Shown here: piece by piece, positions 10,640 through 63,528 of the stretch
How the letters are laid out: every line of letters starts with the position of its first letter
Position numbering within the stretch: the first letter of the stretch is position 1
Source of the DNA: Planctomycetales bacterium
GTDB taxonomy: Bacteria; Planctomycetota; JAKEIC01
Length of the DNA stretch: 64,000 nt
Assembly (NCBI GenBank): GCA_022614695.1
Contig: JAKEIC010000342.1
Span: 4,012-68,011 of the forward strand
Direction: 5' to 3'
Program-made: the position numbers and the translations under genes
The notes under the pieces: generated by a model
Told to the model about the DNA's origin: nothing
Seen by the model: the letters and a program-made list of their open reading frames with translations, nothing else
The model's database searches: none

Positions 10640-10656
10640 GGAAGCTGCGATGGGTC

Positions 10657-10664
10657 CATAATAG
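10657..10664. promoter_or_regulatory. shared divergent AT-rich -10 region (CATAATAG; TATTAT on the other strand)
   Basis: On the plus strand, TAATAG lies 8 nt before the kinase GTG at 10673. On the minus strand, TATTAT lies 18 nt before the CYTH GTG at 10639. Confidence 0.3.
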
Positions 10665-10672
10665 CCGCCGCC

Positions 10673-15000: not shown

Positions 15001-15003
15001 GAT
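14998..15003 (+). promoter_or_regulatory. TAGGAT junction hexamer (P1 stop embedded)
   Basis: TAGGATCGCGCC is conserved with the four other junctions. Here it is followed by a copy-specific insert containing a cccgggag direct repeat, TTGACG and GAGAAT. Confidence 0.3.
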
Positions 15004-15016
15004 CGCGCCCCGGGAG

Positions 15017-17215: not shown

Positions 17216-17218
17216 GAT
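17213..17218 (+). promoter_or_regulatory. TAGGAT -10-like hexamer on the P2 stop, 6 nt before GTG 17225 (leaderless geometry)
   Basis: Read directly: aagTAGGATcgcgccGTGcgg. Confidence 0.4.
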
Positions 17219-17224
17219 CGCGCC

Positions 17225-19204: not shown

Positions 19205-19207
19205 GAT
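19202..19207 (+). promoter_or_regulatory. TAGGAT -10-like hexamer on the P3 stop, 6 nt before GTG 19214
   Basis: Read directly: aagTAGGATcgcgccGTGcgg. Confidence 0.4.
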
Positions 19208-19213
19208 CGCGCC

Positions 19214-21412: not shown

Positions 21413-21415
21413 GAT
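21410..21415 (+). promoter_or_regulatory. TAGGAT -10-like hexamer on the P4 stop, 6 nt before GTG 21422
   Basis: Read directly: aagTAGGATcgcgtcGTGcgc. Confidence 0.4.
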
Positions 21416-21421
21416 CGCGTC

Positions 21422-27208: not shown

Positions 27209-29059
27209 TCACCTCCTTGCGCGGACCGACTCCAGGAGCTGCGCCACGAGCGCGTAGTTCCCGAACGGCGTGGGGACGTAGATCCCGGGGAACCTCCGCA
27301 GAACCTCCGCCGCGACGTCGGAGGCGATCGCGAGGCCTTCGTCGGCCGCGTGGTCGGGGTCCGCGGCCGCCATCCGCTTCCGGACCGCCTCCGGGACGTG
27401 GATGCCGGGGACCTCGTTGTGGAGGAACTCGGCGTGGCGGGCGGAGACGAGCGGGAGGACCCCCGGGAGGACCGGGACCCCGAGCGAGGCCGTCGCCGCC
27501 GCGAAGGGCGCGACCCGCTCGGGCTCGAAGATCGGCTGGGTGAGGACGAACTTCGCGCCCGCGGCGATCTTCCGCCCGAGACGCCGGAGCGTCCCGTCGA
27601 GGGGCTCGGCGAGCGGGTCGAGCCCCACCCCGACGACGAACCGGCCCCTCGCCCCGAGCGGCACGCTCGCCGGGGAGAGGCCGCGGTTCATCGCGCCGGC
27701 CATCTCGACGATCCCGGCCGCCGTCAGGTCGTAGACGAGCGTCGCCGGCGCCATCGCCCCCGCGCCGGGAGGGTCGCCGGTCGTCACGAAGAGGTATCGG
27801 ACCGCGAGCGCATGGAGGCCGAGCAGCTCCGACTCGATCGCGAGGTGGTTCCGGTCGCGGCCCGTCACGTGGACGAGGGGCTCGGGACCGCTCTCGCGCC
27901 GGAGGATCGCGGCGATCGCCAGCGGGGAGACGCGCGGCGCGCCGAGCGGGTTGTCGGGGATCCTCGCGAGCTGGACGCCGGCCGACGAGAGGAGCCTCGC
28001 CCCCTCGAGGACCCGCGCGGTGTCGAGCCCCCGAGGCGGCACGAGGTCGGCGACCACCACGGGGCCGCGCCCGTCGAACACCGTCGGCTCGGGCCTCTCG
28101 CGGACGGGAGCGACGTTCGTCACGTCCTCCGTCCGGGCGACCGCCGCCGCGCGGCGCGTCCCGGGCGCGAGCCCCCGCACGGCCTCCGCGATGGCCCGGA
28201 CGTCGCGGGGCGTCGTCCCGCAGCAGCCGCCGACGAGGCTCGCCCCCGCCCGGACGAGTTCCACGGCCGACGCGGCGAGGTACTCCGGCGTCGTGTCGTA
28301 GACGTAGCGCCCTCCGACGAGCCGCGGGAGGCCCGCGTTCGGATAGGCGCTGAGCGGACCGGGGAGCGCGGCCCCCAGCTCGCGGAGGACGAGCAGAGTC
28401 TCGCGGGGTCCCTTCCCGCAGTTGGCCCCGACCACCGAGGCGCCCGCGCGGGAGAGGGTCTCGAGCGCATGGACAGCCTCCGCGCCCCGGAGGGTGCGCC
28501 CGCCCTCGAAGAACGCCATCTGCGCGACGACCGGGAGCCCCGTCCCGCGGGCCGTCCGGAGCGCCAGCAGGGCCTCGTCCAGGTCGGAGAATGTCTCGAG
28601 GATGAGGAGGTCCGCGCCCCCTTCGGCGAGGGCCTGCGCCTGCTCGCGGAAGATCTCCTCGCGCTGCGCATCGGGGAGGGGCGACTCTCCGGGCCGCGGG
28701 GGGGTGAGGGGTCCCATCGCGCCGGCCACGAAGACGCCCGTGCCGGCCGCCTCCCGGGCGAGCCGGGCCGCCGCGAGGTTCACGTCCCGCGGGGCCGCCG
28801 AGGAGCCCCGCCGGGCGAGGCGGTCCCGGTTCGCGCCGAAGGAGTTCGTCTCGATCACGTGGGCGCCGGCCGCCACGTAGTCCAGGTGCACGGCCCGCAC
28901 CGCCTCCGGGTGGGCGAGGCTGAGCTCCTCGAAGCAGACCGTGAACGGGAATCCCCGCTCGTGAAGGAGGGTCCCCATGGCGCCGTCCCCGACGAGGATC
29001 CCCCGCCTCAACCGCTCGAGGAATTCCGCGCCGCGCGCCATCGGGCCGGAGTGTATCAC
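27209..29059 (-). CDS. bifunctional homocysteine S-methyltransferase / methylenetetrahydrofolate reductase
   Basis: The N-terminal half is an Hcy-binding domain (GDGAMGT, ETNSFGAN, GGCCGTTP). The C-terminal half is MetF-like (GRDRN...LFVTTGDPP, LTQPIF). Confidence 0.85.
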   Translation of the reverse strand: MIHSGPMARGAEFLERLRRGILVGDGAMGTLLHERGFPFTVCFEELSLAHPEAVRAVHLDYVAAGAHVIETNSFGANRDRLARRGSSAAPRDVNLAAARLAREAAGTGVFVAGAMGPLTPPRPGESPLPDAQREEIFREQAQALAEGGADLLILETFSDLDEALLALRTARGTGLPVVAQMAFFEGGRTLRGAEAVHALETLSRAGASVVGANCGKGPRETLLVLRELGAALPGPLSAYPNAGLPRLVGGRYVYDTTPEYLAASAVELVRAGASLVGGCCGTTPRDVRAIAEAVRGLAPGTRRAAAVARTEDVTNVAPVRERPEPTVFDGRGPVVVADLVPPRGLDTARVLEGARLLSSAGVQLARIPDNPLGAPRVSPLAIAAILRRESGPEPLVHVTGRDRNHLAIESELLGLHALAVRYLFVTTGDPPGAGAMAPATLVYDLTAAGIVEMAGAMNRGLSPASVPLGARGRFVVGVGLDPLAEPLDGTLRRLGRKIAAGAKFVLTQPIFEPERVAPFAAATASLGVPVLPGVLPLVSARHAEFLHNEVPGIHVPEAVRKRMAAADPDHAADEGLAIASDVAAEVLRRFPGIYVPTPFGNYALVAQLLESVRARR

Positions 29060-29117
29060 GCCTCCCCTCCCACCCCGGGGCGGGTTCCCGGCCCTGGCGC
29101 GACGGCGCGAGCGCGGT

Positions 29118-36617: not shown

Positions 36618-38141
36618 TTGGGCCGACGCGGCGACCGCGTGGCCGGGCCGGCGCTCGCCCTCCTGCTCGTGGGCTCGGCCTCGCGCGCGGAGGATCCGGG
36701 CGGCGTCCCCGCCCGCATCGTCCTCGCGGGCGGCGAGACCCTCGCCGTCCGGTTCCACGGGGCCACGGGGGACGGGGGGCTCCGGTACTCAAGGCCGGAC
36801 GATCGGGGCGGCGGGGGGGAGACCTTCTGGGAGGAGGTGGCCTGGCTGCGGCTGGGGGACTCGCCGCCGGTCGCCGACCCTCTCGTCGCCGTGGCCGCCC
36901 TCCGCGTCCTCCTGCGGGACGGGACGGTCCTCGCGGCGCTCCGGGTCGAGGGCGAGGGGGAGGGCGGGGCGCTGCGCCTCGATGAGCCGGACCTCGGGCC
37001 GATCCGGCTCCCCGCCGAGTCCGTCGTGTGGATCCGGCTCGGGGAGGGGCCTCTGCCCCCTCGGCCGAAGGGCTTGGGACGGGTCGCCGCGCCGATCCTG
37101 CCCGCGAGCGGAGTGAAGCTCGCCGTGGGCGCCGCGATCTTCTACCCCCCCTCCCCCCCCGTCCCTCGGGCCCGCGCGACCGCCTTCTGGGCGAAGCTTC
37201 GGGGAGGCTCGGCGCTCCGGACCGCCGCGCCGCGGGACGCGAGGCCGGGCGTCGCGGAGATGCGTACGCCGCTCCTCGGTCTGCGTCAGGTCCCCTGGTC
37301 CCGGGTGAGCGAGGTCCGGGCCGTCCCGCCGCGGGCGACCGACCGGGTGCTCGCGGTGGAGTTCGGCCGCGGGCTCGCGAGGGAATTCGGCCCGACGCGT
37401 GAGCCCGAGTGGAGCGCGGGCGTGCAGGGCCTCCTCCTCGACGCCGAGGTCCTGCCCGAGGGAGGGCTTCTTCTCACCGACCGCGCGGGGGGCCGGGTGA
37501 TCGAGGTCTCGGCGTTGGGCGACGAGGTCTGGGCGATCGAGGCGGAGGACCCCGTCTCCGCGACGAGGTTCCCCGGGGGAAACACTGCGGTCACCCGGTT
37601 CCGCCTCGGGGGGGAGCAGAACCCGGTCCCGCTCAGCGGGGCCGTGACCGAGGTCACGCCGGCCGGGGAGTCGGTCTGGTCGCTCGAACGGCTGGATTGC
37701 CCCACCGAGGCCGACCTCCTTCCCGGCGGGGAGATGCTGGTCTGCGAGACGGCCTGGGACTCGGGAGATCCGGCGCGGAAGCGGGTCACGATCCGGGCCC
37801 GGGACGGCTCGATCCTCTCCCGGTGGGGAGGGTTCCGGTATCCCGCCGACGCCGAGGCGCTGCCCGATGGCGGGGTGGTCGTCGCGGACAGGGACGACCC
37901 GCGGGTCGTGTTCCTCGACCGCGACGGGACCGTCCGCCGCACGATCGGGGGGCCCGGTGCGAGGGTCCCGCTCTCGCTTCCCTTCGACGTGGACCTCCTC
38001 GCCGACGGCTCCGTCCTGATCGCGGACTCGGCCCGCGGGCCCGGAGGCGGGACCGGGCGGGTGCTGCGGGTGAGTCCGGACGACCGGGTGCTCTGGTCCC
38101 TATCCGGCCTTGCCGACCCTATCGAGGTGGAGGCGCGATAG
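36618..38141 (+). CDS. secreted beta-propeller-like (NHL/PQQ-like repeat) protein
   Basis: TTG at 36618 (alternative GTG at 36639). The signal peptide is GRRGDRVAGPALALLLVGSASRAED. The C-terminal half has repeated ..DG.VLV.D......V..... strand patterns. Confidence 0.55.
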   Translation: MGRRGDRVAGPALALLLVGSASRAEDPGGVPARIVLAGGETLAVRFHGATGDGGLRYSRPDDRGGGGETFWEEVAWLRLGDSPPVADPLVAVAALRVLLRDGTVLAALRVEGEGEGGALRLDEPDLGPIRLPAESVVWIRLGEGPLPPRPKGLGRVAAPILPASGVKLAVGAAIFYPPSPPVPRARATAFWAKLRGGSALRTAAPRDARPGVAEMRTPLLGLRQVPWSRVSEVRAVPPRATDRVLAVEFGRGLAREFGPTREPEWSAGVQGLLLDAEVLPEGGLLLTDRAGGRVIEVSALGDEVWAIEAEDPVSATRFPGGNTAVTRFRLGGEQNPVPLSGAVTEVTPAGESVWSLERLDCPTEADLLPGGEMLVCETAWDSGDPARKRVTIRARDGSILSRWGGFRYPADAEALPDGGVVVADRDDPRVVFLDRDGTVRRTIGGPGARVPLSLPFDVDLLADGSVLIADSARGPGGGTGRVLRVSPDDRVLWSLSGLADPIEVEAR

Positions 38142-38187: not shown

Positions 38188-38213
38188 AGCCTCGGGAGGT
38201 TAGCGCCCGAACC

Positions 38214-41200
38214 ATGCCGCTCCGCGGCGATCTCGCCAGCTTCAGCCTCGCCGAGATATTCCAGTCCCTATCCATGAACCAGTCCTCCGGCACCCTCATG
38301 GTGAGCGACGGGGAGAACCGGCGGCTGCTGGTCTTCCGCAACGGCGTCCTCTCCCTCGTCGGCCACGGGCGCGCCTACGTCCCGAAGCTCGGGGAGTTCC
38401 TCCTGCGCAAGAACGTGATCGGGGAGGAGGCCCTCGCGAAGGCCCTCGCCCTCCAGAAGGAGAGCGGGGGGCTCCTCGGCGAGGTGCTGGTCCGCGAGAA
38501 GATCGTCACCGAGAAGCAGATCCGCGAGGCGGTCCGCGAGAAGCTCGAGGAGGAGATCTACGACCTCTTCCTCTGGAAGAACGCCTTCTTCGAGTTCAAG
38601 AAGGACCAGTTCCCGGAGGGCACGGAGGCGGCGGGGGCGGCCCCGGCGGCCGGGGCGGCCGCGCCCGAACGGTCGGAGACCGGCACCGCGCTCACGTTCA
38701 ACACGAGCACGATCCTCATGGAGGCGGTCCGCCGCGTGGACGAGTGGGGGCGGATCACCGAGAGCGTGCCGACCCTCCGGATGATCTTCGTCCCGCGGGC
38801 CGAGGCCGCGCCGGAGCGCCCCGTCGGGGAGTGCCCGATCCCGCCCGCCCGCCTCTGGCCTCTGCTCAAGCGCGAGAACGCCGTCCGGGACCTGATCGAG
38901 GCCTGCGCGGTCTCGAAGTTCGACGTCTGCAAGAGCCTCGACGCCCTGGTCCGCGTGGAGGAGGTCTCGCCGCTCCCCGCGGGGGACCTGGACCTCGCGT
39001 TCCAGGACGCGCTCCGCGGCTCCCGCTACGACCTCGGGGCGCGCTACATCGAGTACGCGATGGACCTGGGGGGCCAGGCGAGGGACGTCCGCGAACGGAT
39101 GGTGAAGGCATACCTCGGCGAGCGGGGCGTCGGGGCCGCGCCCGACCCGTGCCGGCTGACCGGGACGGTCGAGCGCTTCGACCTCCCGGGCTTCCTCCAC
39201 GCCGTGCTCCTGAGACGCCTCACGGGGACGCTCCGGGTGCGCGACATCGAGAGCGAGAGGATCCTCTACGTCTCCCCGGAGGAGGTCATGCTCCTCTCCC
39301 GAGGCCCGCGCGAGACCCCCAAGCTCGGGCAGGTGCTCCTGCGCGCGGAGAAGCTCACGCCCACCGACCTGGACCGGGCGCTGACGGTGCAGCGCGAGGA
39401 CCCCCGTCGGCTCGGCGAGATCCTCGTGGACCGCGGGGTCCTCCGGACCGAGGAGGTCGAGGAGGCCGTCCTCACGAAGGCGGTCCAGGAGCTCTTCGAC
39501 CTGTTCCTCTGGCGGAACGCCTACTTCGAGTTCACCACCCGGACCCGGGCCGAGGAGCTCACGGCGCCCGGGGCGAGGCCCGTCCGGCTCGCCCTCTCGG
39601 GGGGGACGCTCAAGGAGCTGGTCGCCCGGATCGTGAGGGCGGGGGACATCCTCGCCAAGGTCTCCTCCTCGCGGGCGATCCTGACGCCCGTCCGCAAGGA
39701 GGGCCGCCACTCCCGGGGCCGCACGACCGAGGAGGACGTGCTCGCGCTCGTGAACGGCGTCCGGACCGTCGGCGACATCTTCCGGCTCACGCCCCGCTCC
39801 TCGGCCGAGGTCTGCGAGGTGCTCTACGCCCTCATGAACCAAGGGGCGGTCCGGCCGCTCACGCTCGCGGAGGCCCGTGAGGCGGCCGAGGCGGCGCTCG
39901 CCGAGGGCCAGGTGGAGATCGGCCTCAAGATGTGCGCCCACGGGCAGGAGCTCGCGCCCGACGACCCGGGGCTCAAGACGATCTTCGAGGAGGCGCAGGC
40001 CCGCCGCCCCGACGCGGGGGAGGCCACGCGCGAGTACCGGCTCGAGGGGGACCTTGAGAGCTTCAGCCTGGCCGAGCTCGTGCAGTCCCTCTACCTGAAC
40101 AAGCACTCGGGCACGTTGCGCGTGAAGGACGGCCGGCGCGAGAAGATCGTCTACTTCGCGCAGGGCACGATCTCGCTCCTCACGCGCGGCCACCAGGAAG
40201 TCTCGCGCCTCGGCGAGATCCTGGTGGACGCCGGGAAGGTCTCCGAGTACGACGTCGAGCGCGCCCTCGAGGAGCAGCAGGGGACGGGCAAGCGCCTCGG
40301 CGAGCTGCTGGTGGAGCGCGGGCTCGCGACCGAGGAGGACATCCAGGAGGCGGTCGAGGAGAAGGTCCGGGACGAGCTGTTCGACGTGTTCCTCTGGCGA
40401 AACGCCACGTTCGAGTTCCTGAAGAACTACTTCCCGGACGAGTTCACGAACCCAGACGCCCCGGTGACGCGCCTCGCGCTCGACACGACGCGCACCCTCA
40501 TGGCGGCCATCTCGCGCATTGAGAAGTGGGAGGAGCTCACGCGGGAGCTCTCGAGCGTGAAGGCGGTCTACCGCCGCACGGGCGTCGCGCCGGGACCCGA
40601 GCTCTCCCGCCGGGCGCGGGTCCTCCTCGAGCCTGTGGACGGGCGGCGGACCGTCGAGGAGCTGCTCGAGGAGTCGCCGGCGGGCCGCTTCGCCGCCGCC
40701 CAGGCTCTCGCGGAGCTCAAGCGCGCGAACCTCGTCCGGCCGCTCGTCCTCGACGAGGTGAACGCCGAGGCCGAGCGGGCGTTCGAGGAGCGCGACTTCG
40801 AACGGTGCGTGAAGTACTACGAGTACGCGCTGCAGCTCGACGAGGGGAACGAGTTCCTCAAGCGCTACATCGCCGAGGCCAAGGGCAACCTCTCGCAGTT
40901 CGACGCGATGCGGGTGCGGATGAAGCCCTTCGACCTCGTGAACCTCTTCCGGACGATCGTCCGGGGGAGCGCCACGGGGACACTCTCGGTGCGGGACGGG
41001 GCGAGCAGCCGGCTCGTCTACCTCGGGCAGGGCGAGGTGGCGTGGCTCGACGAGGGACCGCGGGAGGGGCCGTCGCTCGCCGACGTGCTCCGGCAGGGCG
41101 GGCGCGTGCCGGAGAAGGCGCTGACCCGGGCGGTCGAGTTCCAGAAGCGGACCGGCCGCGACCTCCTCGAGGTGCTCGAGAAGCAGGGGGCGCTCACCCC

Positions 41201-42704
41201 GGAGGCGGGCCAGGAGGCGCGGTCCGAGGCCGCCCGCGCCATGCTCTGGGACCTCTTCTCCTGGCGCGAGGCCTCGATCGAGTTCGAGCGCTCGAGCTAC
41301 CCGCTCCGGCTCGACGAGGCCTCGCTCCCGGTCTCGCGGGCGGCCCTCCCCGTGGCCGACCTCCTCTCCGGGCTCGCCGAGCGGCGCGAGGAGTGGGACC
41401 GCTACCGGAATGCCCTCCCCTCCGAGAGGCTCATCCTCGTCGCCGCCGAGCGCGAGAGGGGGGCGCCGCTGCTCCGCCGCCACAAGGAGAACCCGACGCT
41501 GCCCCTCGTGGACGGCCGGCGGACGGTCGCGCAAGTGGTCCGCGAGTCGGGCCTCTCCGAGTTCGACGCCTTCCGCTCCCTCCACGACCTGGTGACGGGC
41601 CGGGTCGTCCGGGCCCTCACGGCGGAAGAGTCGGTGAAGGCCGCCGAGAACGCCTGGGTCTTCAAGGACCTCCCCGCCTGCGAGGCCTTCTACGAGCACG
41701 CCCTCGAGGTGGACCGCGGCAACGCCGAGGTGCTGCGGAGGCTCGAGCTGCTGCGGCGCGGCCAGGAGACGCAGGTGCGGCGGCGCCTCACCGAGGAGTT
41801 CGGCCGCAACAAGGACCTCTCGGCGATCCTCGAGGCGGTCCGGCGCGACGCGCGATGGGGGACGCTCGAGGCGACCGTGCAGGACTCGGTGCGCTGGGTC
41901 CACTTCGCGGAGGACCGGGTGACTCTACTCTCGCGCGGGAGCCGGCCCGGTCGCCGCCTCGGCGAGATTCTCGTCGAGGCCCTGCGGGCCACCCCCGCCC
42001 AGATCGAGAAGGCGCTGGCCGCGCAGCCCCGGCTCAAGAAGCGCCTCGGGGAGATCCTCGTGCTCCAGGGGGTCCTCGGCGAGCGCGACCTGGTGGCGAT
42101 GGTCCGCGAGAAGATCCTGGAGGACCTCCACGAGCTCTATTCCTGGGAGGACGCCGTCGTGCGCTTCGCCGCGGGGGACCCGCCCGCGGAGATGACGGCG
42201 GCCGGGGCGCCGGTCGCGGCCTGGGAGGGGGACGCGGCGGCCCTGATCGCCGAGGCCCTCGAGCGGGAGAGGACCTGGCCCGACATCGCGACGACCATCC
42301 CCTCGGGGAACGCGATCTTCGGGCGCAAGGACCGGCCGGCGGGCGGCGGGGAGGCGCGCCGAGGGGAGGCCGGAGGGACGGGCGGGGCGAAGAACCCCGT
42401 CCTCGCGCACATCACCGGGCGCCGGTCGGTCGCCGAGGTCTGCGCCCGGGCGGGGGTCCCCCGCTACGAGGCCCTCGCGGCGTTCCTCCGGCTGATCCGG
42501 AACGACGTGATCCGCCCGCTCGAGCCGGAGGAGTGCCGCCGGCGGGGCGAGGAGGCCTACCTCGCGAACGACCTCCCGGCCGCGGCGACGTTCCTCAGGT
42601 TCGCGGTGGAGCTGGACGGTGCCGACGAGCGGGCCCGCAAGCGCCTCGAGCGGATCGAGGCCACCCTCGGCCGGGCGAGGGTCGGTGGGGGAGGGCGGGA
42701 ATGA
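38214..42704 (+). CDS. 1496-aa protein of five tandem PATAN/DUF4388 modules, each with an inserted MshEN-type (T2SSE_N-like) motif pair
   Basis: Modules start at about 38214, 39150, 40036, 40911 and 41811. The DUF4388-like openings are GDL.SFSLAE..QSL.....SGTL.V. The 24+5+24 motif pairs lie at 38385-38543, 39321-39479, 40206-40364, 41073-41231 (degenerate) and 41955-42113. Each is followed by DLFLWRNA.FEF. Confidence 0.85.
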   Translation: MPLRGDLASFSLAEIFQSLSMNQSSGTLMVSDGENRRLLVFRNGVLSLVGHGRAYVPKLGEFLLRKNVIGEEALAKALALQKESGGLLGEVLVREKIVTEKQIREAVREKLEEEIYDLFLWKNAFFEFKKDQFPEGTEAAGAAPAAGAAAPERSETGTALTFNTSTILMEAVRRVDEWGRITESVPTLRMIFVPRAEAAPERPVGECPIPPARLWPLLKRENAVRDLIEACAVSKFDVCKSLDALVRVEEVSPLPAGDLDLAFQDALRGSRYDLGARYIEYAMDLGGQARDVRERMVKAYLGERGVGAAPDPCRLTGTVERFDLPGFLHAVLLRRLTGTLRVRDIESERILYVSPEEVMLLSRGPRETPKLGQVLLRAEKLTPTDLDRALTVQREDPRRLGEILVDRGVLRTEEVEEAVLTKAVQELFDLFLWRNAYFEFTTRTRAEELTAPGARPVRLALSGGTLKELVARIVRAGDILAKVSSSRAILTPVRKEGRHSRGRTTEEDVLALVNGVRTVGDIFRLTPRSSAEVCEVLYALMNQGAVRPLTLAEAREAAEAALAEGQVEIGLKMCAHGQELAPDDPGLKTIFEEAQARRPDAGEATREYRLEGDLESFSLAELVQSLYLNKHSGTLRVKDGRREKIVYFAQGTISLLTRGHQEVSRLGEILVDAGKVSEYDVERALEEQQGTGKRLGELLVERGLATEEDIQEAVEEKVRDELFDVFLWRNATFEFLKNYFPDEFTNPDAPVTRLALDTTRTLMAAISRIEKWEELTRELSSVKAVYRRTGVAPGPELSRRARVLLEPVDGRRTVEELLEESPAGRFAAAQALAELKRANLVRPLVLDEVNAEAERAFEERDFERCVKYYEYALQLDEGNEFLKRYIAEAKGNLSQFDAMRVRMKPFDLVNLFRTIVRGSATGTLSVRDGASSRLVYLGQGEVAWLDEGPREGPSLADVLRQGGRVPEKALTRAVEFQKRTGRDLLEVLEKQGALTPEAGQEARSEAARAMLWDLFSWREASIEFERSSYPLRLDEASLPVSRAALPVADLLSGLAERREEWDRYRNALPSERLILVAAERERGAPLLRRHKENPTLPLVDGRRTVAQVVRESGLSEFDAFRSLHDLVTGRVVRALTAEESVKAAENAWVFKDLPACEAFYEHALEVDRGNAEVLRRLELLRRGQETQVRRRLTEEFGRNKDLSAILEAVRRDARWGTLEATVQDSVRWVHFAEDRVTLLSRGSRPGRRLGEILVEALRATPAQIEKALAAQPRLKKRLGEILVLQGVLGERDLVAMVREKILEDLHELYSWEDAVVRFAAGDPPAEMTAAGAPVAAWEGDAAALIAEALERERTWPDIATTIPSGNAIFGRKDRPAGGGEARRGEAGGTGGAKNPVLAHITGRRSVAEVCARAGVPRYEALAAFLRLIRNDVIRPLEPEECRRRGEEAYLANDLPAAATFLRFAVELDGADERARKRLERIEATLGRARVGGGGRE

Positions 42705-42913
42705 GGGTGCGCGTGCCGAGCGTGTGGAGAGCCCCCGGGTCCGGTGGTAGACTCCCGCCCCCCCGCGGGGCGAGTGCGGGGAGGTGACGCATCGCCGATC
42801 GCGAGACATTCTCCCGGCGCGCGACGGACCGGCTGCGGGCGCTCGCCCGCTCCATCCAGCAGAAGGAGGAGGTCGAGCACTCCTTCGCGGCCACCCGGCG
42901 CAAGCAGTTCAAG

Positions 42914-43609
42914 ATGCTCCCGGACCCGCCGCAGGTCCCGGGCTACGACTTCGCCTGCTACTATAACCCGGCCGCGACGCTCTCCGGCGACTTCTTCGAT
43001 TTCATCCCGGTCTCCGAGCACGAGCTCGGGATCGTCGTGGGGGACGTGACGGGTCACGGGCTCGAAGCGGCGTTCATCATGGCGGCCGCGAAGAAGGCCA
43101 TCAGCATCCTCGGCCAGGGGAAGTCCTCCCCGCGCGAGGTGCTGGCCGCGGCGAACGAGAACCTCCACGCGGACTTGGATGAGATGACGTTCGTCTCGGT
43201 CTTCTACGGGATCCTCGACCGGAGGACGAAGGTCCTCTCGCACGTCCGCGCGGGCCACAACCCGACGATCCTCCTCAACCCGGACCGGCCGAAGCCGGTG
43301 GAGGAGCTGCGGCCCCGCGGGATCGTGGTCGGGATGCAAAGGGGGGAGTCGTTCCTGAAGTGCACCGAGGAGGTGAAGACGCCTCTACAGGTGGGCGACA
43401 CCGTCGTCCTGTACACCGACGGGATCATCGAGGCCAAGAACGCCGCCGGCGTCGAGTACGGCAAGGAGCGGATGATCCGCCTCCTGCAGGAGCACGGCCG
43501 CAAGAGGATGGCCGAGACCTTCGGCGCCTCGATCGAGGACTTCGCCTCCTTCCTCGACGGGGCCGAGCAGGAGGACGACATCACGCTGGTCGGGTTCCGG
43601 GTCCTGTGA
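42914..43609 (+). CDS. PP2C/SpoIIE-family protein serine/threonine phosphatase (conservative start; probably begins at 42791)
   Basis: SpoIIE-type blocks are present: SGDFFDF, VVGDVTGHGLEAA, FVSVFYGILD, RAGHNP, LYTDGIIEA and DDITLVGFRV. Confidence 0.85.
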   Translation: MLPDPPQVPGYDFACYYNPAATLSGDFFDFIPVSEHELGIVVGDVTGHGLEAAFIMAAAKKAISILGQGKSSPREVLAAANENLHADLDEMTFVSVFYGILDRRTKVLSHVRAGHNPTILLNPDRPKPVEELRPRGIVVGMQRGESFLKCTEEVKTPLQVGDTVVLYTDGIIEAKNAAGVEYGKERMIRLLQEHGRKRMAETFGASIEDFASFLDGAEQEDDITLVGFRVL

Positions 43610-45880: not shown

Positions 45881-46180
45881 CTACCCCTGCGGCGGCGGGC
45901 CCCCCACGACGTCGTAGTGCTCCCGGAACCAGGACTCGGCGGTCCGGAACGCCTCGTCCTCGGAGGGGCCGATCCAGAACATCTCGGTCCGGGCGGGGGA
46001 GCCGAGCCCCGGCCAGCGCGCCGCGTCCTTCACGTCCGGGGGGAACCGGACCGAGACGACCCAGCGGGTCGTCCGCTCGTGCGCGGAGAGGATGACCGTC
46101 GTCTCGAGCGCGGGCTTCACCCCGCGGACCCGGATCGTGACGCGCCTTTCGCCCACGACGGCAGTGTACCTCGAGGTCAC
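45881..46180 (-). CDS. hypothetical 99-aa protein translationally coupled to P6
   Basis: The GTG at 46180 overlaps the P6 stop (GTGA). It has non-repetitive composition (..TVILSAHERTTRWVVSVRFPPDVKD..MFWIGPSEDEAFRTAESWFREHYD). I recognised no family. Confidence 0.4.
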   Translation of the reverse strand: MTSRYTAVVGERRVTIRVRGVKPALETTVILSAHERTTRWVVSVRFPPDVKDAARWPGLGSPARTEMFWIGPSEDEAFRTAESWFREHYDVVGGPPPQG

Positions 46181-47916
46181 CGCCGCGGGGCGGCCGATTC
46201 TCCCTCGCACTCCGCGAGGAGGGCGCGGATCTCGTCGGACCGTGGGTGCTCCGGGGCGAGGCGCAGGAAGGACCGGAGGAGCCCGCTCGCGCGTTCCCGG
46301 TCGCCCGGGCCGCCCCGCTCGGCCAGGGCGCGCCCCAGGTTCGCGAGCACCGGCGGCGCCTCGGGAAGCGCGCGCAGCGCCCCCTCCCAGTCGGCGATCG
46401 CGCCCTCGGGATCCCCGGCGTTCGCTCGGGCGATGCCCCGGTGAGTCAGGGCGACCCCGTGGCCCGGGGCCATCCGGAGGGAAGCCTCGATGTCGGCGAG
46501 GCCCGCCTCCGGGTCGCCCAGTTCCCCTCGCGTGATCCCCCGGTTCACCAGGGCCTCGACGAGCCGGGGGTCGCGCCGCACCGCCGCGTCGAAGTCCTCG
46601 AGCGCGCCCGGAAGGTCGCCCCGGGCCTTCCGCACGTTCCCCCGGACGTAGCGGGCGAACGGGAAGCCTGAGATCCGCGCGAGGGCGGCCTCCGCGTCCG
46701 CCAGGGCGCCCTCCATGTCGCCCGCCCGGAACCGGAGCGCGCCGCGGTTCGCGAGGGCGTCGGCCCAGTCGGGCGACCGCCGGATGGCGGCGTCCATGTC
46801 GGCGAGAGCTCCGGCCCGGTCGCCGAGGGCCTCGAGAGCGATCGCGCGCGCGAGCAGCGCCTCGGGAGCCCCGGGGGCGAGCCGAAGGGCGGCGTCCGCC
46901 TCGCGCAGGCCCCCCGCCGGGTCCCCGAGGCTGTTCCGCGCCTCCGCACAAGCGACGTAGGCCCAGGAGAAGGGAATCCCGATCGCCAGGGCCCGCTCGA
47001 ACTCCCGCAACTCGCCCGTGCGGTCCTCCCGGTCCTGCAGCCGCAGGAGCCACCCCCGGAGCGCCGCCGCTTCCCAGCCCTCCTCCGCCGCGAGGAGGCG
47101 AAGGCCCTCGTCCGATCGTCCGGAGTCGCCCAGGACGAGGGCGCGAGCGAGCCGTCCCCAACGTCCCTCGCCCTTCGCCGCCGCCGCGAGGTCGGGGTCC
47201 TCGATCCCGCCCGCCCACCGCGTGAAGCGCTCGAACGCGCGCCAGAAGCGCGCCTCGGTAGCCTCCGGGGCGTCGTCCGAGACCCGGCCCCACGCGTCCT
47301 GGGCCTCCGCCGACCGTCCCGCGGCCCAGAGGAGGCGGCCCCGCTCGACGAGCCAAGCGTTCCGCCCGGCGTGGGCGGGCTCGAGGGTGAGGGCGCGGCC
47401 CAGGCACTCGGCGCCGGCCGACGGGTCGCTCGCCCGGAGGGCCCCGGCGCGCTCGACAAGGGCCTCGGCCTCGGTAGGACGCCGATCGGGGCCCCGGTCC
47501 GCCGGAGGAGCGACCGGCGTCGGTCGAAGGGCGGCCGCGGCCGACACCGCGACCGTGAGAAGCACCGCCGCCCCGAGGATCCGGCGGCCCGCCCCCGGCG
47601 GCCGCGCGCGCGGGCGCTCTCCGCGGAGCAAGCGTTCGAGGTCGTCGCGGAGGGCTCCCGCGTCTGGGAACCGCGAACGAACGCCCCTCGCAAGGGCCAC
47701 GCGCAGCAGCCGGTCGAGGGCGGCGGGGACGTCCGGGCGGGTCCTCCGGATCGGGGCCGGCTCCCTCGTCAGGATCCCGCCGATCACGGCCGCCGTCGTC
47801 TCCCCGCCCCACGGCGGCCGACCGGCGAGCGACTCGTAGAGGACGACCCCGAGACTCCAGACGTCCGTCCCGGGGCCGAGGCTCGAGACATCGCCGCGAG
47901 CCTGCTCGGGAGACAT
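46177..47916 (-). CDS. N-lobe-less kinase C-lobe - TM - TPR protein, dispersed copy P6 (canonical-start version)
   Basis: The first canonical start gives MSPEQARGDVSSL. The conserved AFLTDFGLAKSVATGSRFTRSGQALGTPSY block continues in frame upstream (47917-48006) with no ATG, GTG or TTG back to the stop at 48157-48159. Confidence 0.65.
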   Translation of the reverse strand: MSPEQARGDVSSLGPGTDVWSLGVVLYESLAGRPPWGGETTAAVIGGILTREPAPIRRTRPDVPAALDRLLRVALARGVRSRFPDAGALRDDLERLLRGERPRARPPGAGRRILGAAVLLTVAVSAAAALRPTPVAPPADRGPDRRPTEAEALVERAGALRASDPSAGAECLGRALTLEPAHAGRNAWLVERGRLLWAAGRSAEAQDAWGRVSDDAPEATEARFWRAFERFTRWAGGIEDPDLAAAAKGEGRWGRLARALVLGDSGRSDEGLRLLAAEEGWEAAALRGWLLRLQDREDRTGELREFERALAIGIPFSWAYVACAEARNSLGDPAGGLREADAALRLAPGAPEALLARAIALEALGDRAGALADMDAAIRRSPDWADALANRGALRFRAGDMEGALADAEAALARISGFPFARYVRGNVRKARGDLPGALEDFDAAVRRDPRLVEALVNRGITRGELGDPEAGLADIEASLRMAPGHGVALTHRGIARANAGDPEGAIADWEGALRALPEAPPVLANLGRALAERGGPGDRERASGLLRSFLRLAPEHPRSDEIRALLAECEGESAAPRR

Positions 47917-48100
47917 GTAGCTCGGGGTCCCGAGCGCCTGGCCGCTCCGGGTGAATCTCGAGCCGGTCGCGACGGACTTCGCGAGGCCGAAGTCGGTGAG
48001 GAAGGCGCAAGGCTCGATGCGAGGAGCCCCTTCGAGGGGCTCAGGGCAAGCCGGCGACGCGGCCAGGGCGTTGGCGACGTCGCGCGCGCGCTCGATGGCG

Positions 48101-48391
48101 CTACTCCGCGAGCTGCTCTCCGGCCTTCTCGACGTCCCCGCGGCGGCCGATGAGTGTCACGCGATCGCCCTCCGCCAGGACGGTCGCCCCGTCCGGGATG
48201 AGCAGGTCCCGCCCGCGTCGGATCGAGATGATCAGGGCGTCCTTCGGAAGCCGCATCTCCCGGAGGTGCTTCCCGACGAGGCCCGACTCGGCCGACACGT
48301 CCACGTGGCGCAGCTCCGAGTCGTGTTCCACGAGGTCGCGGAGAAGCTCCTCGAGATCCGTGCGGATGGTGGCGAGATCACGCTTGGGCAC
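48101..48391 (-). CDS. TrkA-C (RCK C-terminal) domain protein
   Basis: TrkA_C pattern: ..V...S.L.GK.L.E..LP....II.I.R......P.G.T.L..GD...LIG. Confidence 0.75.
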   Translation of the reverse strand: MPKRDLATIRTDLEELLRDLVEHDSELRHVDVSAESGLVGKHLREMRLPKDALIISIRRGRDLLIPDGATVLAEGDRVTLIGRRGDVEKAGEQLAE

Positions 48392-48408: not shown

Positions 48409-48501
48409 TGGCGGAGAGGCGGGGATTCGAACCCCGGAGGCAGGTATAACCCGCCTAACGGCTTAGCAAGCCGCCGCATTCGACCACTCTGCCACCTCTC
48501 C
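48409..48501 (-). tRNA. tRNA-Ser (anticodon GCU)
   Basis: Cloverleaf read by hand. The acceptor is GGAGAGG/CCTCTCC plus an encoded GCCA end. The anticodon stem-loop is GCGGC-TTGCTAA-GCCGT. It has a long variable arm (class II) and a T-arm GGGG-TTCGAAT-CCCC. Confidence 0.9.
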
Positions 48502-48533: not shown

Positions 48534-49103
48534 TCAGAGGGCCGGTTGGCCCAGGACGTAGCCCACCTTCCGCGCCCACTGGGACTCGGGCCAGCGGTCC
48601 ATGATCCGACGCCACGGCTCTTTCGCCGCGTCCAGCTCCTTCTTCTGCCGCACGCGGCTGATCCCCCACCAGTAGCAGGCCTCGGGGGCCCGCTCGGCGC
48701 CGGGGGCGTCGGCCACCTGCCGGAACAGCTCGTGCGCCTCGTCGTAGCGCTTCTCGCCCATCGCGAGGATCGCGCGGCCGAACGTGAGCTCCGGCAGGAG
48801 GTCGCGCGGGGGGAGGTACCCGACCACGAGGTGCGCCGGCCTCTCGTCGGCATCCGTCACGACGAGCCCGGGGAGCCAGCGCACGTTCAGCTTCTTGGAC
48901 AGCTCGATGTGCTTCCCGCTCTCGAGCCTCGCGGGGACGAACCTCTCCGAGATCTCCTTCTCGACGGCCGGGTCTGGATACGTCACGGCATCCATCGTCT
49001 TGCAGCCGAGTCACGTCGGGCTGTGCAGGAAGAGGAAGATCGGCTTCCCGGTCTCCTTCGCCCTCTTGCGGGCCTGGTCCCAGCTCTCGGTCCAGGGGAT
49101 CAT
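48534..49103 (-). CDS. thioredoxin-fold protein with in-frame TGA at the first redox Cys (predicted selenoprotein, UxxC)
   Basis: GAAGGAGG lies 5 nt before the ATG at 49103. There are 30 sense codons, then TGA (49011-49013), then LGCKTMDAV... in the same frame to the stop at 48534. The joined protein reads ..GKPIFLFLHSPT-U-LGC-KTMDAVTYPDPAVEKEISERFVP.., matching the W-C-x-x-C position of thioredoxin-like proteins. Confidence 0.7.
48976..48993 (-). promoter_or_regulatory. SECIS-like hairpin (GGAUGC CGUGAC GUAUCC) starting 17 nt after the UGA
   Basis: A 6-bp stem (one G.U pair) with a GU-containing apical loop 24-29 nt downstream of the UGA, read directly. Confidence 0.4.
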
Positions 49104-49120
49104 CTCGGCCTCCTTCGCTG

Positions 49121-62247: not shown

Positions 62248-63528
62248 TCACTCCACCACCGGCAGCCGGATCTTCTCCCTCTTCCCGCCGCGCAGCACCT
62301 CGATCTCGCAGGTCTTGCCCGCCTGCTGCGTCAGCCGGAACCAGGCCTGGAAATGCAGTTCGCTCTCGAAGTCGGCCTTCGCGGCGGCCGAGAGGACCAG
62401 GTCGCCCTTCTTGATGCCGGCTTTCGCGGCGTTCCGGCCCGTGTGGGCCTCGTCCCCCCAGTCCACGATGTACTGGACCCGGAACGCGAACGCGCCGGCG
62501 GGGAGGCCGGCCTTGGCGACGTCCTCGGGGGAGAGTCTCGGTCCCCCGAACCCGGGCTTCGGGGAGAGCCCCCACATCGAGGCCCGCCAGGAGAGGTCGA
62601 GGGGGGACCCGACTCGCCAGCCGGGGCGCAGCGCGACCTTCCCCTCCTTCGCCTCGCCGCCGCGCTCCCAGGCGAGGGGGAGCGTCCCCCCCGCGAACGG
62701 GGTCTCCTCCAGGACCCACTGCACGTCGGCGATCGTCCGCACGCGTCGCCCCCCAACGCGCGCGAGACGGTCCCCGGCGCGGAGCCCGGCGGCCGCAGCC
62801 GGCGACCGGGCGGCAATCTCCTTCACGAGAGTCTGGTCGGCGGGGTCCAGCGCGAGCCCCACGCGGGCGGGATCGGGCCAGAGCCAGATCGAGTCGCGGG
62901 ACCAGCGCTTCGCGTCCTGCGCCGTCCGCCGCTCCGACTCGTTCACCATGTGGCAGTGGAAGCACTTGGGAGCCTTCCCGGCCTTGATCTGCCTCGCCAT
63001 CGCGGGGATCTGTTCGATGGCGCGGACGGGGGCGGGCTTCGGAGGCCGCGGGCTCTTCCCGTACTCCTCGTGGTCGGCGAGCGTCTCCTTCATCGCGCGC
63101 ACGAGCGACGCGATCGAGAGCCGCGCCTCGGCGGGACCCCCGTCGCGGCCGCCGTACTGGCGGTAGATGGTCCCGTCGCCGTTCATGAGGAGCGCGGCGA
63201 ACGTGAGGTCGTAGTCGAAGCGGAAGACGCCGAGGTCCACCCCGGCCATGTCGAGGACGCGGACGCAGACGTAGTCCTTTGCCGCCTCGACGAACTCCGC
63301 GGGGGGACGGACCAACCGCCCGTCCCAGGACTGGCAGTCCTTTCAGGGCTCTCAGCGGAAGACGGCAAGGAGAGGCTTCCCGGACTGGGCGGCCTCGGCG
63401 CGCGCGAGAGTCAGGTCGGCGCGCCAGGAGAATGCCCCTGGCGCGCCCCCGTCCTGGGCGAGGGCTGGGAGAAGAGCCCCGGCCGCGAGGGCGGCGGGGA
63501 GGAACGCGAGGCGAGAGACGAGCGACAT
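62248..63528 (-). CDS. exported thioredoxin-like / CxxCH / double-PDZ protein with two in-frame TGA codons forming a U-E-P-U-K-D-C motif (predicted double-selenocysteine protein)
   Basis: GGAGGAGG lies 5 nt before the ATG at 63528. The signal peptide is MSLVSRLAFLPAALAAGALLPALA-QD. The protein then reads ..SGKPLLAVFR-TGA-GAG-CCC-TGA-AAG-GAC-TGC.. I checked codon by codon that this is contiguous in frame with ORF 62248..63315. PDZ-like segments include AAGLRAGDRLARVGG and AAKAGIKKGDLVL. Confidence 0.7.
63304..63326 (-). promoter_or_regulatory. SECIS-like hairpin 2 (GGGACGG gcgguuggu CCGUCCC)
   Basis: A 7-bp perfect stem. Its GU-rich 9-nt loop lies 25-33 nt after the second UGA (63343-63345). 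Confidence 0.4.
63327..63341 (-). promoter_or_regulatory. SECIS-like hairpin 1 (AGGACU gcc AGUCCU)
   Basis: A 6-bp perfect stem. Its apical loop lies 17-19 nt after the first UGA (63352-63354). Confidence 0.35.

What the first reader, a model, noticed from the sequence alone, without database searches (positions are those of the whole stretch)
48534..49103. Second selenoprotein candidate: thioredoxin-fold protein with T-U-L-G-C (UxxC)
Seen in sequence: ORF 48534..48995 starts artificially at an internal Met. The same frame continues upstream through a single TGA (49011-49013) to an ATG at 49103 that has a GAAGGAGG RBS. The joined product is MIPWTESWDQARKRAKETGKPIFLFLHSPT-U-LGC-KTMDAVTYPDPAVEKEISERFVP... 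This matches the (KP..l....WCxxC..m......d..V......fv) layout of thioredoxin-like proteins, with the TGA at the first Cys. A hairpin with a GU-containing loop lies 17 nt downstream. Two independent TGA-at-redox-Cys genes in 64 kb argue for a selenoprotein-rich organism rather than for pseudogenes.
Basis: partly seen in the sequence, partly recalled or inferred. Interest (0 to 1): 0.65.

Follow-up and report, generated by a model that had tools for sequence, protein, structure and literature searches.

The report
Unannotated thioredoxin-like selenoprotein gene with SECIS
This is a real gene for a small thioredoxin-like redox protein whose active-site residue is selenocysteine, encoded by an in-frame TGA that a conserved RNA hairpin just downstream marks for recoding; databases cut the whole family short at that codon, but it belongs to the commonest known class of bacterial selenoproteins.

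Summary
On the minus strand, one reading frame runs from ATG 49103 (RBS GAAGGAGG) through a single TGA (49011-49013) to the stop at 48534-48536. It encodes 189 residues: a thioredoxin-fold domain of the DsbD-gamma/Thioredoxin_7 type with motif U-L-G-C, then a short TPR-like helical domain.

All 25 homologous genes I read at DNA level (30-95% identity; MAGs labelled Planctomycetota, Myxococcales and Chloroflexia) have TGA in the same column. None has TAA or TAG. The N-terminal 30 residues are conserved upstream of it. Full-length homologues have Cys there (27 of 32).

A 6-9 bp hairpin lies 16-18 nt after the TGA (window 48975-48994). It pairs in 24 of 24 aligned genes, shows compensatory changes and meets the published bSECIS consensus. 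In the window it depends on rare codons (GAT, TAT, CCA). It is absent from two Cys-form genes that encode the same peptide.

A second gene in the window (62248-63528) belongs to the curated selenoprotein family NF041199. No sel genes or tRNA-Sec lie in the window, and the rest of the genome could not be searched.

Every database entry found is truncated at the TGA. No NCBIfam model covers the family, and the 2026 list of 119 families has no such architecture.

The parts
49109..49116 (-). Shine-Dalgarno sequence GAAGGAGG, 5 nt upstream of the start codon
   Evidence: Read directly from the sequence.
48534..49103 (-). Complete selenoprotein coding sequence: 189 residues plus the terminal TGA. 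It runs from ATG 49101-49103, through Sec-TGA 49011-49013, to stop TGA 48534-48536.
   Evidence: Translation. Pfam Thioredoxin_2, Thioredoxin_7 and DsbH above threshold. The start is fixed by the conserved M-I-x-W N-terminus, with in-frame stops just upstream in several homologues.
49014..49103 (-). N-terminal 30 codons, which all gene callers miss (strand beta-1 and the loop leading to the active site)
   Evidence: Conserved at protein level in all homologues. Third-position variation is highest (0.28/0.31/0.40 per site) and there are 239 synonymous codon differences, similar to the 30 codons after the TGA. Gene callers report this stretch as a separate 30-39 aa ORF.
49011..49013 (-). Sec codon (TGA), residue 31
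   Evidence: TGA in 25 of 25 homologous genes, never TAA or TAG. It aligns to Cys in 27 of 32 full-length homologues and to the first Cys of the C-V-A-C motif of the DsbD C-terminal domain.
49002..49013 (-). Redox motif U-L-G-C (UxxC)
   Evidence: Family-wide U-x-(G/A/S)-C. In the AlphaFold model of Cys homologue P0078, the equivalent Cys38 sits immediately before helix 39-48, the classical thioredoxin nucleophile position.
48975..48994 (-). bSECIS hairpin: 7-bp stem UGGAUGC/GUAUCCA with 6-nt loop CGUGAC. It overlaps codons M37-D-A-V-T-Y-P43.
   Evidence: MFE -8.4 kcal/mol, z -2.6. The six core pairs form in 24 of 24 sequences. Three pairs show double compensatory changes (11 cells), and 0 of 500 shuffles reach the covariation score. 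RNAalifold predicts the same helix. All four bSECIS consensus criteria are met. The stem uses rare codons, and the hairpin is absent in Cys forms.
48789..49103 (-). Thioredoxin-fold domain (residues 1 to about 105), DsbD-gamma/Thioredoxin_7 type, with invariant W76 and P78 (the W-L-P-G loop, presumed cis-Pro)
   Evidence: Pfam. PDB sequence hits to the DsbD C-terminal domain, E 8e-8. Foldseek to DsbH and DsbD-gamma, TM 0.7-0.77. Invariant columns.
48537..48788 (-). C-terminal helical TPR-like domain (residues about 106-189), YbgF/CpoB-like
   Evidence: Weak hits to TPR_2, TPR_6 and TPR_16 and to TIGR02795 YbgF. PDB 2xev YbgF, E 0.014. The model shows helices at 106-195 in P0078 numbering. Full-length Foldseek matches only to YbbN/CnoX.
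48534..48536 (-). True stop codon, also TGA, with no hairpin behind it
   Evidence: Read directly from the sequence.

Best explanation
The region 48534-49103 (-) is one gene encoding a 189-residue selenoprotein.

Shown:
- The mRNA carries an in-frame UGA at codon 31.
- That codon occupies the first (nucleophilic) position of the UxxC redox motif of a thioredoxin-fold domain of the DsbD-gamma/Thioredoxin_7 type.
- A conserved stem-loop lies inside the coding sequence 16-18 nt downstream of the UGA.

Inferred from the established bacterial Sec pathway: SelB-GTP carrying Sec-tRNA(Sec) binds this bSECIS hairpin while the ribosome sits on the UGA, and delivers selenocysteine instead of allowing release-factor termination. 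The gene's second TGA (48534-48536) has no such hairpin and terminates.

Inferred function:
- There is no signal peptide or membrane segment, so the protein is probably cytoplasmic.
- It likely acts as a thiol-disulfide (selenenylsulfide) oxidoreductase. Sec31 would attack substrate disulfides or oxidised thiols, and Cys34 would resolve the intermediate.
- The C-terminal TPR-like domain probably recruits client or partner proteins, in the manner of the Trx+TPR chaperedoxin YbbN/CnoX.

The gene is one member of a multi-phylum family in which Sec forms are frequent. It has Cys-form relatives that lack the hairpin.
For: 1. The TGA is conserved in 25 of 25 homologous genes at 30-95% identity. They come from independent assemblies and different gene neighbourhoods.
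2. Coding constraint is equal on both sides of the TGA.
3. Cys aligns to the TGA in 27 of 32 full-length homologues and in the DsbD-gamma active site.
4. The hairpin pairs fully in its six core pairs in 24 of 24 genes. Compensatory changes include GAU/AUC to GGU/ACC and to GA(G/A)/CUUC. No shuffle out of 500 reaches the covariation score, and slid controls collapse. RNAalifold finds the hairpin independently.
5. The hairpin fits the consensus bSECIS model quoted in PMC13188914: loop 4-6 nt, stem 6-9 bp, an invariant G in the first two loop positions followed by U in 21 of 24, spacing 23-24 nt, and MFE -7.2 to -14.4 kcal/mol.
6. Rare synonymous codons build the stem in a genome with GC3 of 95%.
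7. Two Cys-form genes encode the same peptide, MDA(V/I)(S/T)YP, but use GAC. They have no hairpin (-2.8 and -2.4 kcal/mol).
8. A second gene in the same window belongs to the curated selenoprotein family NF041199 (410 bits vs cutoff 300). It has two in-frame TGAs followed by a 9-bp hairpin.
9. Fold evidence comes from an AlphaFold model of a Cys homologue, with pLDDT 97 and pTM 0.91. It shows a Trx fold plus a helical domain, with the active-site Cys at the N-cap of helix 1. The only PDB entries that align across both domains are YbbN/CnoX, 3qdn and 3qou.
Against: - No selA, selB, selD or tRNA-Sec was found in the 64 kb or in the flanks of 24 related loci. The rest of the genome could not be searched.
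- There is no experimental evidence of Se incorporation.
- The hairpin overlaps a conserved peptide motif (M-D-A-V-T-Y-P), so part of its sequence conservation is protein-level. The argument rests on synonymous-site choice, amino-acid covariation and only two Cys-form controls.
- The functional assignment (cytoplasmic oxidoreductase, TPR-mediated client binding) is inference from fold and architecture. The YbbN/CnoX match has low TM (0.43/0.31) and rmsd of 11 A. There is no conserved gene neighbourhood to suggest a pathway.
Confidence: 0.88

Rival explanations
1. Pseudogene or assembly/sequencing error. A TGC/TGT Cys codon was mutated or misread to TGA, and only the 153-aa remnant, or nothing, is made.
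For: Gene callers and GenBank treat it this way. MCI0343460.1 is a 150-aa 'hypothetical protein'.
Against: TGA sits at the identical column in 25 of 25 homologues from independent samples, at 30-95% identity. Purifying selection acts on both sides. Truncated entries dominate the family: 90 of the top 150 cluster representatives start right after this column.
Confidence: 0.01
2. Two separate products. Translation stops at the UGA, giving a 30-aa peptide, and the 153-aa protein is made from Met37 by re-initiation. The conserved hairpin would serve translational coupling or mRNA stability rather than Sec insertion.
For: Met37 (or Leu in some members) lies 5 codons after the TGA and is fairly conserved. 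The Sec machinery was not seen in the window.
Against: - The split would cut a thioredoxin fold between strand beta-1 with the active-site residue and helix alpha-1.
- Cys-form homologues are continuous.
- Position 37 is Leu (CTG) in 7 of the 24 aligned members: L014, L016, L018, L020, L021, L022 and L024. No RBS precedes it.
- The hairpin geometry and its invariant loop G match the bSECIS model.
- The hairpin would occlude the Met37 start codon.
Confidence: 0.04
3. UGA is read through or reassigned to a standard amino acid (Trp, Cys, Gly or Arg by near-cognate or suppressor tRNA, or an alternative genetic code) without selenium.
For: Full-length translation would explain the conservation on both sides equally well. 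One full-length homologue has Trp at the column.
Against: - TGA also serves as the ordinary stop of this same gene (48534-48536), so it is not globally reassigned.
- The column is Cys in 27 of 32 full-length forms and lies in a redox motif, the signature of Sec/Cys pairs.
- The dedicated hairpin is present only in TGA forms.
- A curated selenoprotein family member lies 13 kb away.
Confidence: 0.04

Closest known systems
'Thiol:disulfide interchange protein' selenoprotein family (PF13098, UxxC; Kryukov & Gladyshev 2004; representative WP_011366075.1, listed in Table 1 of PMC13188914)
   Same: It has a Thioredoxin_2 (PF13098) domain above the Pfam threshold, one Sec in a UxxC motif at the nucleophile position, and a bSECIS inside the coding region.
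   Different: The window protein has an added C-terminal TPR-like domain and no signal peptide. Direct comparison with the representative sequence was not possible, so it is unknown whether they are the same family. The list gives only a generic Pfam domain for that family.
Trx7/PDZ domain-containing (seleno)protein, NCBIfam NF041199 (a member lies in this same window at 62248-63528)
   Same: It has the same type of N-terminal Thioredoxin_7-like domain, with Sec in the redox motif. NF041199 is the best NCBIfam hit of the target.
   Different: The target scores 34.6 bits against a cutoff of 300. It has no PDZ domains and no signal peptide, and carries a TPR-like tail instead. Its motif is UxxC, whereas that family has CxxU (UxxU in the window's copy).
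C-terminal domain of DsbD (DsbD-gamma; PDB 1vrs, 2fwe, 4ip6) and DsbH (2ju5)
   Same: These are the closest solved structures by sequence (E 8e-8) and fold (TM about 0.7-0.77). Their CxxC aligns to U31-x-x-C34.
   Different: DsbD-gamma is the periplasmic end of a membrane electron-transfer protein. The target is a stand-alone soluble protein without the DsbD membrane domain (NF001419: 30.5 bits vs cutoff 330).
YbbN/CnoX chaperedoxin (PDB 3qou, 3qdn)
   Same: It is the only solved architecture that aligns over both domains, a thioredoxin domain followed by a TPR domain (Foldseek E 4e-7, 191-205 columns). One homologue is auto-named 'thioredoxin-like negative regulator of GroEL'.
   Different: There is no detectable sequence similarity: it is absent from the PDB sequence hits at E<=1. 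The match has low TM (0.43/0.31) and rmsd of 11 A. The Trx domain is of a different subtype, the TPR part is shorter, and no chaperone function has been tested.

Membership tests
Bacterial selenoprotein gene (Sec-UGA plus bSECIS) | In-frame UGA conserved at the same position in orthologues, with coding conservation on both sides | tested here: met
   25 of 25 genes have TGA. Codon-position and synonymous patterns are equal upstream and downstream.
Bacterial selenoprotein gene (Sec-UGA plus bSECIS) | Cys-containing homologues with Cys aligned to the UGA | tested here: met
   C in 27 of 32 full-length homologues at that column.
Bacterial selenoprotein gene (Sec-UGA plus bSECIS) | bSECIS stem-loop meeting the consensus model: loop 3-9 nt, stem 4-16 bp, G in the first two loop positions, 16-37 nt from UGA to loop, MFE <= -7.5 kcal/mol (PMC13188914, Fig. 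2) | tested here: met
   Window: 7 bp, loop CGUGAC, spacing 23 nt, -8.4 kcal/mol. Of the 24 aligned genes, 23 meet every criterion and one reaches only -7.2 kcal/mol; a 25th gene read later (L044) has the same hairpin at -6.8 kcal/mol. Covariation supports it.
Bacterial selenoprotein gene (Sec-UGA plus bSECIS) | selA, selB, selC (tRNA-Sec) and selD present in the genome | not testable with these tools
   None found in the 64-kb window or in related loci. Indirect support comes from an NF041199 selenoprotein gene in the same window.
Bacterial selenoprotein gene (Sec-UGA plus bSECIS) | Selenium incorporated into the protein | not testable with these tools
   Needs an experiment (75Se labelling or mass spectrometry).
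Thioredoxin-fold thiol-disulfide oxidoreductase (Pfam Thioredoxin_2 PF13098 / Thioredoxin_7 PF13899) | Domain score above the Pfam gathering threshold | tested here: met
   48.5 and 44 bits against a threshold of 27.
Thioredoxin-fold thiol-disulfide oxidoreductase (Pfam Thioredoxin_2 PF13098 / Thioredoxin_7 PF13899) | C/UxxC at the N-terminus of helix alpha-1, and a conserved cis-Pro loop | tested here: met
   Model of Cys homologue P0078: Cys38 immediately precedes helix 39-48. P78 is invariant and W76 nearly so across the family. The cis conformation itself was not examined.
NF041199 Trx7/PDZ (seleno)protein | HMM score at or above 300 bits, with PDZ domains | tested here: not met
   34.6 bits, matching only residues 3-69. 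No PDZ domains.
VPGUxxT thioredoxin-like (seleno)proteins NF041382 / NF041383 | HMM cutoff of 350 / 275 bits and the VPGUxxT motif | tested here: not met
   20.7 and 27.2 bits. The motif here is SPT-U-LGC.
DsbD (NF001419) / TsoB (NF045694) | HMM cutoff of 330 / 805 bits, with a membrane or rhodanese part | tested here: not met
   30.5 and 25.8 bits, over the Trx domain only.
'Thiol:disulfide interchange protein' selenoprotein (PF13098, UxxC) | PF13098 domain with a single Sec in UxxC | tested here: met
   This is the only definition given in the published table.
'Thiol:disulfide interchange protein' selenoprotein (PF13098, UxxC) | Sequence-level orthology to the representative WP_011366075.1 | not tested
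   That sequence could not be retrieved with the available tools.
YbbN/CnoX chaperedoxin | Trx domain plus TPR domain, with detectable homology to YbbN | tested here: inconclusive
   Foldseek E 4e-7 across both domains, but TM 0.43/0.31 and rmsd 11 A. No sequence hit at E<=1.
YbgF/CpoB (TIGR02795) | HMM cutoff of 90.1 bits | tested here: not met
   34.5 bits over residues 108-179. The automatic JGI name 'TolA-binding protein' reflects only this weak TPR similarity.

The most novel reading that the evidence does not exclude
This would be a previously uncatalogued selenoprotein family: a cytoplasmic 'seleno-chaperedoxin' made of a Trx7-type UxxC domain fused to a TPR client-binding domain.

- It is present in Planctomycetota, Myxococcota and Chloroflexota.
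- Sec forms appear to outnumber Cys forms.
- The bSECIS is almost invariant across phyla.
- That bSECIS was created purely by synonymous changes (GAC>GAU, UAC>UAU) inside an already conserved peptide motif, M-D-A-V-T-Y-P. This gives a concrete minimal path by which a redox Cys can be converted to Sec.
Probability: 0.4. Interest if true: 0.5.

Novelty: new member of a known kind. Interest (0 to 1): 0.42.

Why it matters
- Annotation. Every database entry found for this family (at least 90 cluster representatives at 50% identity, plus GenBank records such as MCI0343460.1) is truncated at the Sec codon. The entries are named 'hypothetical protein' or 'TolA-binding protein' and lack the active site. 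Recognising the family corrects these records and adds a Trx+TPR architecture to the prokaryotic selenoproteome. The 2026 inventory of 119 families and NCBIfam release 20 do not contain such an architecture.
- Sec usage. It marks this Planctomycetales lineage, and Myxococcales and Chloroflexia MAGs, as Sec users.
- SECIS evolution. The Sec/Cys pair with an identical peptide but different synonymous codons is a clean natural experiment on how a SECIS arises inside a coding sequence.
- Limits. It is still one more thioredoxin-fold UxxC selenoprotein, the most common class, so the advance is incremental.

Tried and rejected
I used the 158 residues after the TGA instead.
I modelled Cys homologue P0078 instead (35% identity).
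- The afdb50 fold library was unavailable.
- Rfam gave nothing relevant: only the tRNA at gathering thresholds and chance-level hits at E up to 10.
- The larger 77-nt fold, with an outer stem, is not more stable than shuffles, and its outer pairs are not conserved. I dropped it and kept only the apical hairpin.
- The promoter and terminator scan found nothing around the gene.
- I looked for a conserved gene neighbourhood and found none. Contexts differ: M16 peptidase/YfhO, amidohydrolase, oligopeptide ABC transporter, rhodanese, acyltransferases.
- I looked for tRNA-Sec in 24 related loci and found none.
- The genome-collection scan found only two true loci among species representatives, so the taxonomy rests on a few MAG labels.
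- A scan of the window for further coding-like TGA interruptions found only this gene, plus one site at 36789-36791 without a redox motif.

Full report
**1. What is in the sequence**

On the minus strand a single reading frame runs from ATG 49101-49103 to TGA 48534-48536, interrupted only by TGA 49011-49013. GAAGGAGG lies 5 nt upstream of the ATG. The ORF that tools list (48534..48995, 153 aa) starts at Met37 of this frame.

With the TGA read as Cys, the 189-residue product scores above Pfam gathering thresholds for Thioredoxin_2 (48.5 bits), Thioredoxin_7 (44) and Thioredox_DsbH (28.5). It also has weak TPR matches in residues 106-180. The window is 74% G+C with GC3 of about 95% in genes.

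**2. The TGA is conserved, not an accident**

A search with the joined protein returned 63 close relatives. All are about 150-160 aa and cover only about 80% of the query, meaning all are cut at the same place. Some start 'MGC...', which means the gene caller used the Leu codon right after the TGA as a start.

I fetched DNA for 25 distinct members at 30-95% identity:
- by exact-protein look-up;
- from the genome collection;
- from the metagenome collection.

Every one has TGA, never TAA or TAG, in the same column. The motif is U-x-(G/A/S)-C, and a conserved N-terminus (M-I-x-W...W..A...A....P-I-F-L-F-L-x-S-P-x) lies upstream. The gene neighbourhoods differ, so these are independent occurrences.

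Among ten members without indels, per-site divergence at codon positions 1/2/3 is:
- 0.28/0.31/0.40 upstream of the TGA;
- 0.33/0.22/0.42 downstream of it.

There are 239 and 258 synonymous codon differences respectively. Both sides are therefore translated in this frame. This rules out sequencing error and pseudogene.

**3. Cys homologues**

I ran an exhaustive HMMER search with the 158 residues after the TGA against 1.84 billion cluster representatives. It gave 943 hits at E<=1e-3 and 238 at E<=1e-10. Some of these are TPR-only proteins.

Of the best 150:
- 90 begin 0-11 residues after the Sec column, the truncation signature. All 6 that I checked at DNA level have TGA.
- 32 are full length, about 186-210 aa.
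- In those 32 the Sec column holds C (27), S (3), W (1) or N (1). The +3 column holds C in 30.

The ratio of Sec to Cys forms is biased, because the query is itself a Sec form.

**4. The SECIS element**

I aligned 66 nt around the TGA from 24 genes, without gaps (A3). The alignment shows a hairpin whose six core pairs (columns 27-32 with 39-44) form in 24 of 24 sequences. Three pairs show changes on both sides (11 cells): A-U to G-C, U-A to A-U or G-U, and A-U/G-U/G-C.

Controls:
- No shuffle out of 500 reaches the observed covariation score or number of double changes.
- Sliding the 3' partners drops pairing from 86% to 16-54%.

RNAalifold predicts the same helix.

The covariation crosses amino-acid changes. 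Asp/Tyr (GAU...UAUC), Gly/Tyr (GGU...UACC) and Glu/Leu (GAR...CUUC) each preserve pairing.

The consensus bSECIS model quoted in the 2026 review requires a 3-9 nt loop, a 4-16 bp stem, G in the first two loop positions, 16-37 nt between UGA and loop, and MFE <= -7.5 kcal/mol (PMC13188914). The family has 4-6 nt loops, 6-9 bp stems, an invariant loop G (followed by U in 21 of 24), spacing of 23-24 nt and MFE of -7.2 to -14.4 kcal/mol.

In the window the hairpin is 48975-48994: UGGAUGC-CGUGAC-GUAUCCA, -8.4 kcal/mol, z = -2.6.

Two further arguments separate RNA-level from protein-level constraint:
- The window's stem uses GAT, TAT and CCA. These account for only 6.8%, 3.2% and 1.8% of Asp, Tyr and Pro codons in the window's genes.
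- Two Cys-form genes (L038, L041) encode the same peptide, M-D-A-(V/I)-(S/T)-Y-P, but use GAC. They have no hairpin at these columns (-2.8 and -2.4 kcal/mol).

So the hairpin is specific to the TGA forms and is made by synonymous choices. The Cys-form control has only two sequences.

**5. Does the organism decode Sec?**

The window contains only a tRNA-Ser(GCT) (48409-48501). Pfam scans of 30 coding-like ORFs found no SelA, SelB or SelD domains. Related loci have no tRNA-Sec. The rest of the genome is out of reach, so this criterion is untested.

Indirect support is strong. The companion candidate at 62248-63528 (-) scores 410 bits against NCBIfam NF041199 'Trx7/PDZ domain-containing (seleno)protein', whose cutoff is 300. 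It has two in-frame TGAs (F-R-U-E-P-U-K-D-C; 63352-63354 and 63343-63345) followed by a 9-bp hairpin.

The window's protein is identical to GenBank MCI0343460.1 from a 'Planctomycetales bacterium' MAG. Complete Sec-insertion gene sets have been reported in several Planctomycetes (PMC4807772).

**6. What the protein is**

By sequence, the closest solved structures are DsbD C-terminal domains (E 8e-8). Their C-V-A-C aligns to U31-L-G-C34.

I modelled a Cys homologue (P0078, 35% identical) with a 56-sequence alignment. The model has pLDDT 97 and pTM 0.91. It shows a thioredoxin fold followed by five to six helices, and the active-site Cys directly precedes helix 1.

Foldseek against the PDB gave two kinds of match:
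- Across both domains, only YbbN/CnoX (3qdn, 3qou; E about 4e-7, but TM 0.43/0.31 and rmsd 11 A).
- For the Trx domain alone, DsbH and DsbD-gamma (TM 0.7-0.77).

P78 in the W-L-P-G loop is invariant and is presumably the cis-Pro. The N-terminus begins directly with the fold. Several homologues have in-frame stops just upstream, so there is no signal peptide.

My inference is a cytoplasmic seleno-thiol oxidoreductase whose TPR-like tail binds partners. It would be analogous to CnoX but is not demonstrably a member of that family. No conserved neighbourhood points to a pathway.

**7. Comparison with what is known**

NCBIfam release 20 has no model for this family. The best hits are all far below cutoff:

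| Model | Score (bits) | Cutoff (bits) |
|---|---|---|
| NF041199 | 34.6 | 300 |
| YbgF TIGR02795 | 34.5 | 90 |
| DsbD NF001419 | 30.5 | 330 |
| VPGUxxT type 2 (NF041383) | 27.2 | 275 |
| VPGUxxT type 1 (NF041382) | 20.7 | 350 |

The 2026 inventory of 119 prokaryotic selenoprotein families lists no Trx+TPR architecture (PMC13188914). [quoted passage not shown] The target satisfies its stated definition, but I could not compare it with the representative sequence.

A profile search found no full-length Sec-annotated entry. Names given by sources are 'hypothetical protein', 'TolA-binding protein' and 'thioredoxin family protein'.

**8. Verdict**

This is a genuine selenoprotein gene with its bSECIS, in the best-known class (thioredoxin-fold, UxxC). 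It belongs to a family that current annotation systematically truncates and that appears uncatalogued. I rate it a new member of a known kind, of moderate interest.

Noticed in passing
window 62248-63528 (-); TGA codons at 63352-63354 and 63343-63345: The companion candidate is a member of the curated family NF041199, Trx7/PDZ (seleno)protein (410 bits vs cutoff 300). Here it has two in-frame TGAs, F-R-U-E-P-U-K-D-C, i.e. UxxU. The 2026 review table lists this family as CxxU with one Sec. A 9-bp hairpin, GGGACGGGC-GGUUG-GUCCGUCCC, follows.
   Followed up: partly
window 48534-48536 (-): The target gene's own terminator is also TGA. The same codon therefore means Sec at codon 31 (hairpin behind it) and stop at codon 190 (no hairpin) in one mRNA.
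   Followed up: yes
L038 (gene at 1394-1966) and L041 (gene at 698-1309), compared with window 48975-48994: Cys-form relatives keep the peptide M-D-A-(V/I)-(S/T)-Y-P but use GAC and other codons that break the hairpin. The bSECIS of the Sec forms is created almost entirely by synonymous substitutions inside a pre-existing conserved motif. Only two Cys-form genes were examined.
   Followed up: partly
window 14867-17215, 17216-19204, 19205-21412, 21413-23896 (+), and 46180-48156 (-): There are four tandem paralogues, all in the same reading frame and all ending in TAG, plus a fifth copy next to the target gene. Each matches only the C-terminal part of the protein-kinase model (positions from about 139 onward, of 263) and is followed by many TPR repeats. 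The kinase N-lobe appears to be missing.
   Followed up: no
window 48409-48501 (-): A tRNA-Ser(GCT) lies 32 nt downstream of the selenoprotein stop codon. The arrangement is conserved in the 95%-identical locus L001 (M16 peptidase/YfhO divergent upstream; tRNA-Ser and a TrkA_C protein downstream).
   Followed up: partly
L044 5983-6468 (contig labelled Chloroflexia by NCBI for the same protein cluster): A 32%-identical member has U-T-S-C and the identical hairpin GGAUAC-CGUGAC-GUAUCC in a 57% G+C genome. The SECIS sequence is nearly invariant across phyla with very different base composition.
   Followed up: partly
window 7230-9203 (+), 9923-13042 (+), 27212-29116 (-), 38190-42701 (+) with 42788-43606 (+): Several ORFs have unusual domain combinations: Memo + AMMECR1 in one ORF; Ser/Thr kinase + FGE-sulfatase domain; homocysteine S-methyltransferase + MTHFR; and a 1504-aa protein with five DUF4388/PatA_N repeats followed by a SpoIIE phosphatase gene.
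   Followed up: no
window 36789-36791 (-): This is the only other in-frame TGA in the window flanked on both sides by coding-like composition (P-I-V-R-P-*-V-P-E-P-P). It has no redox motif and is probably a shadow frame of the kinase gene on the + strand.
   Followed up: no
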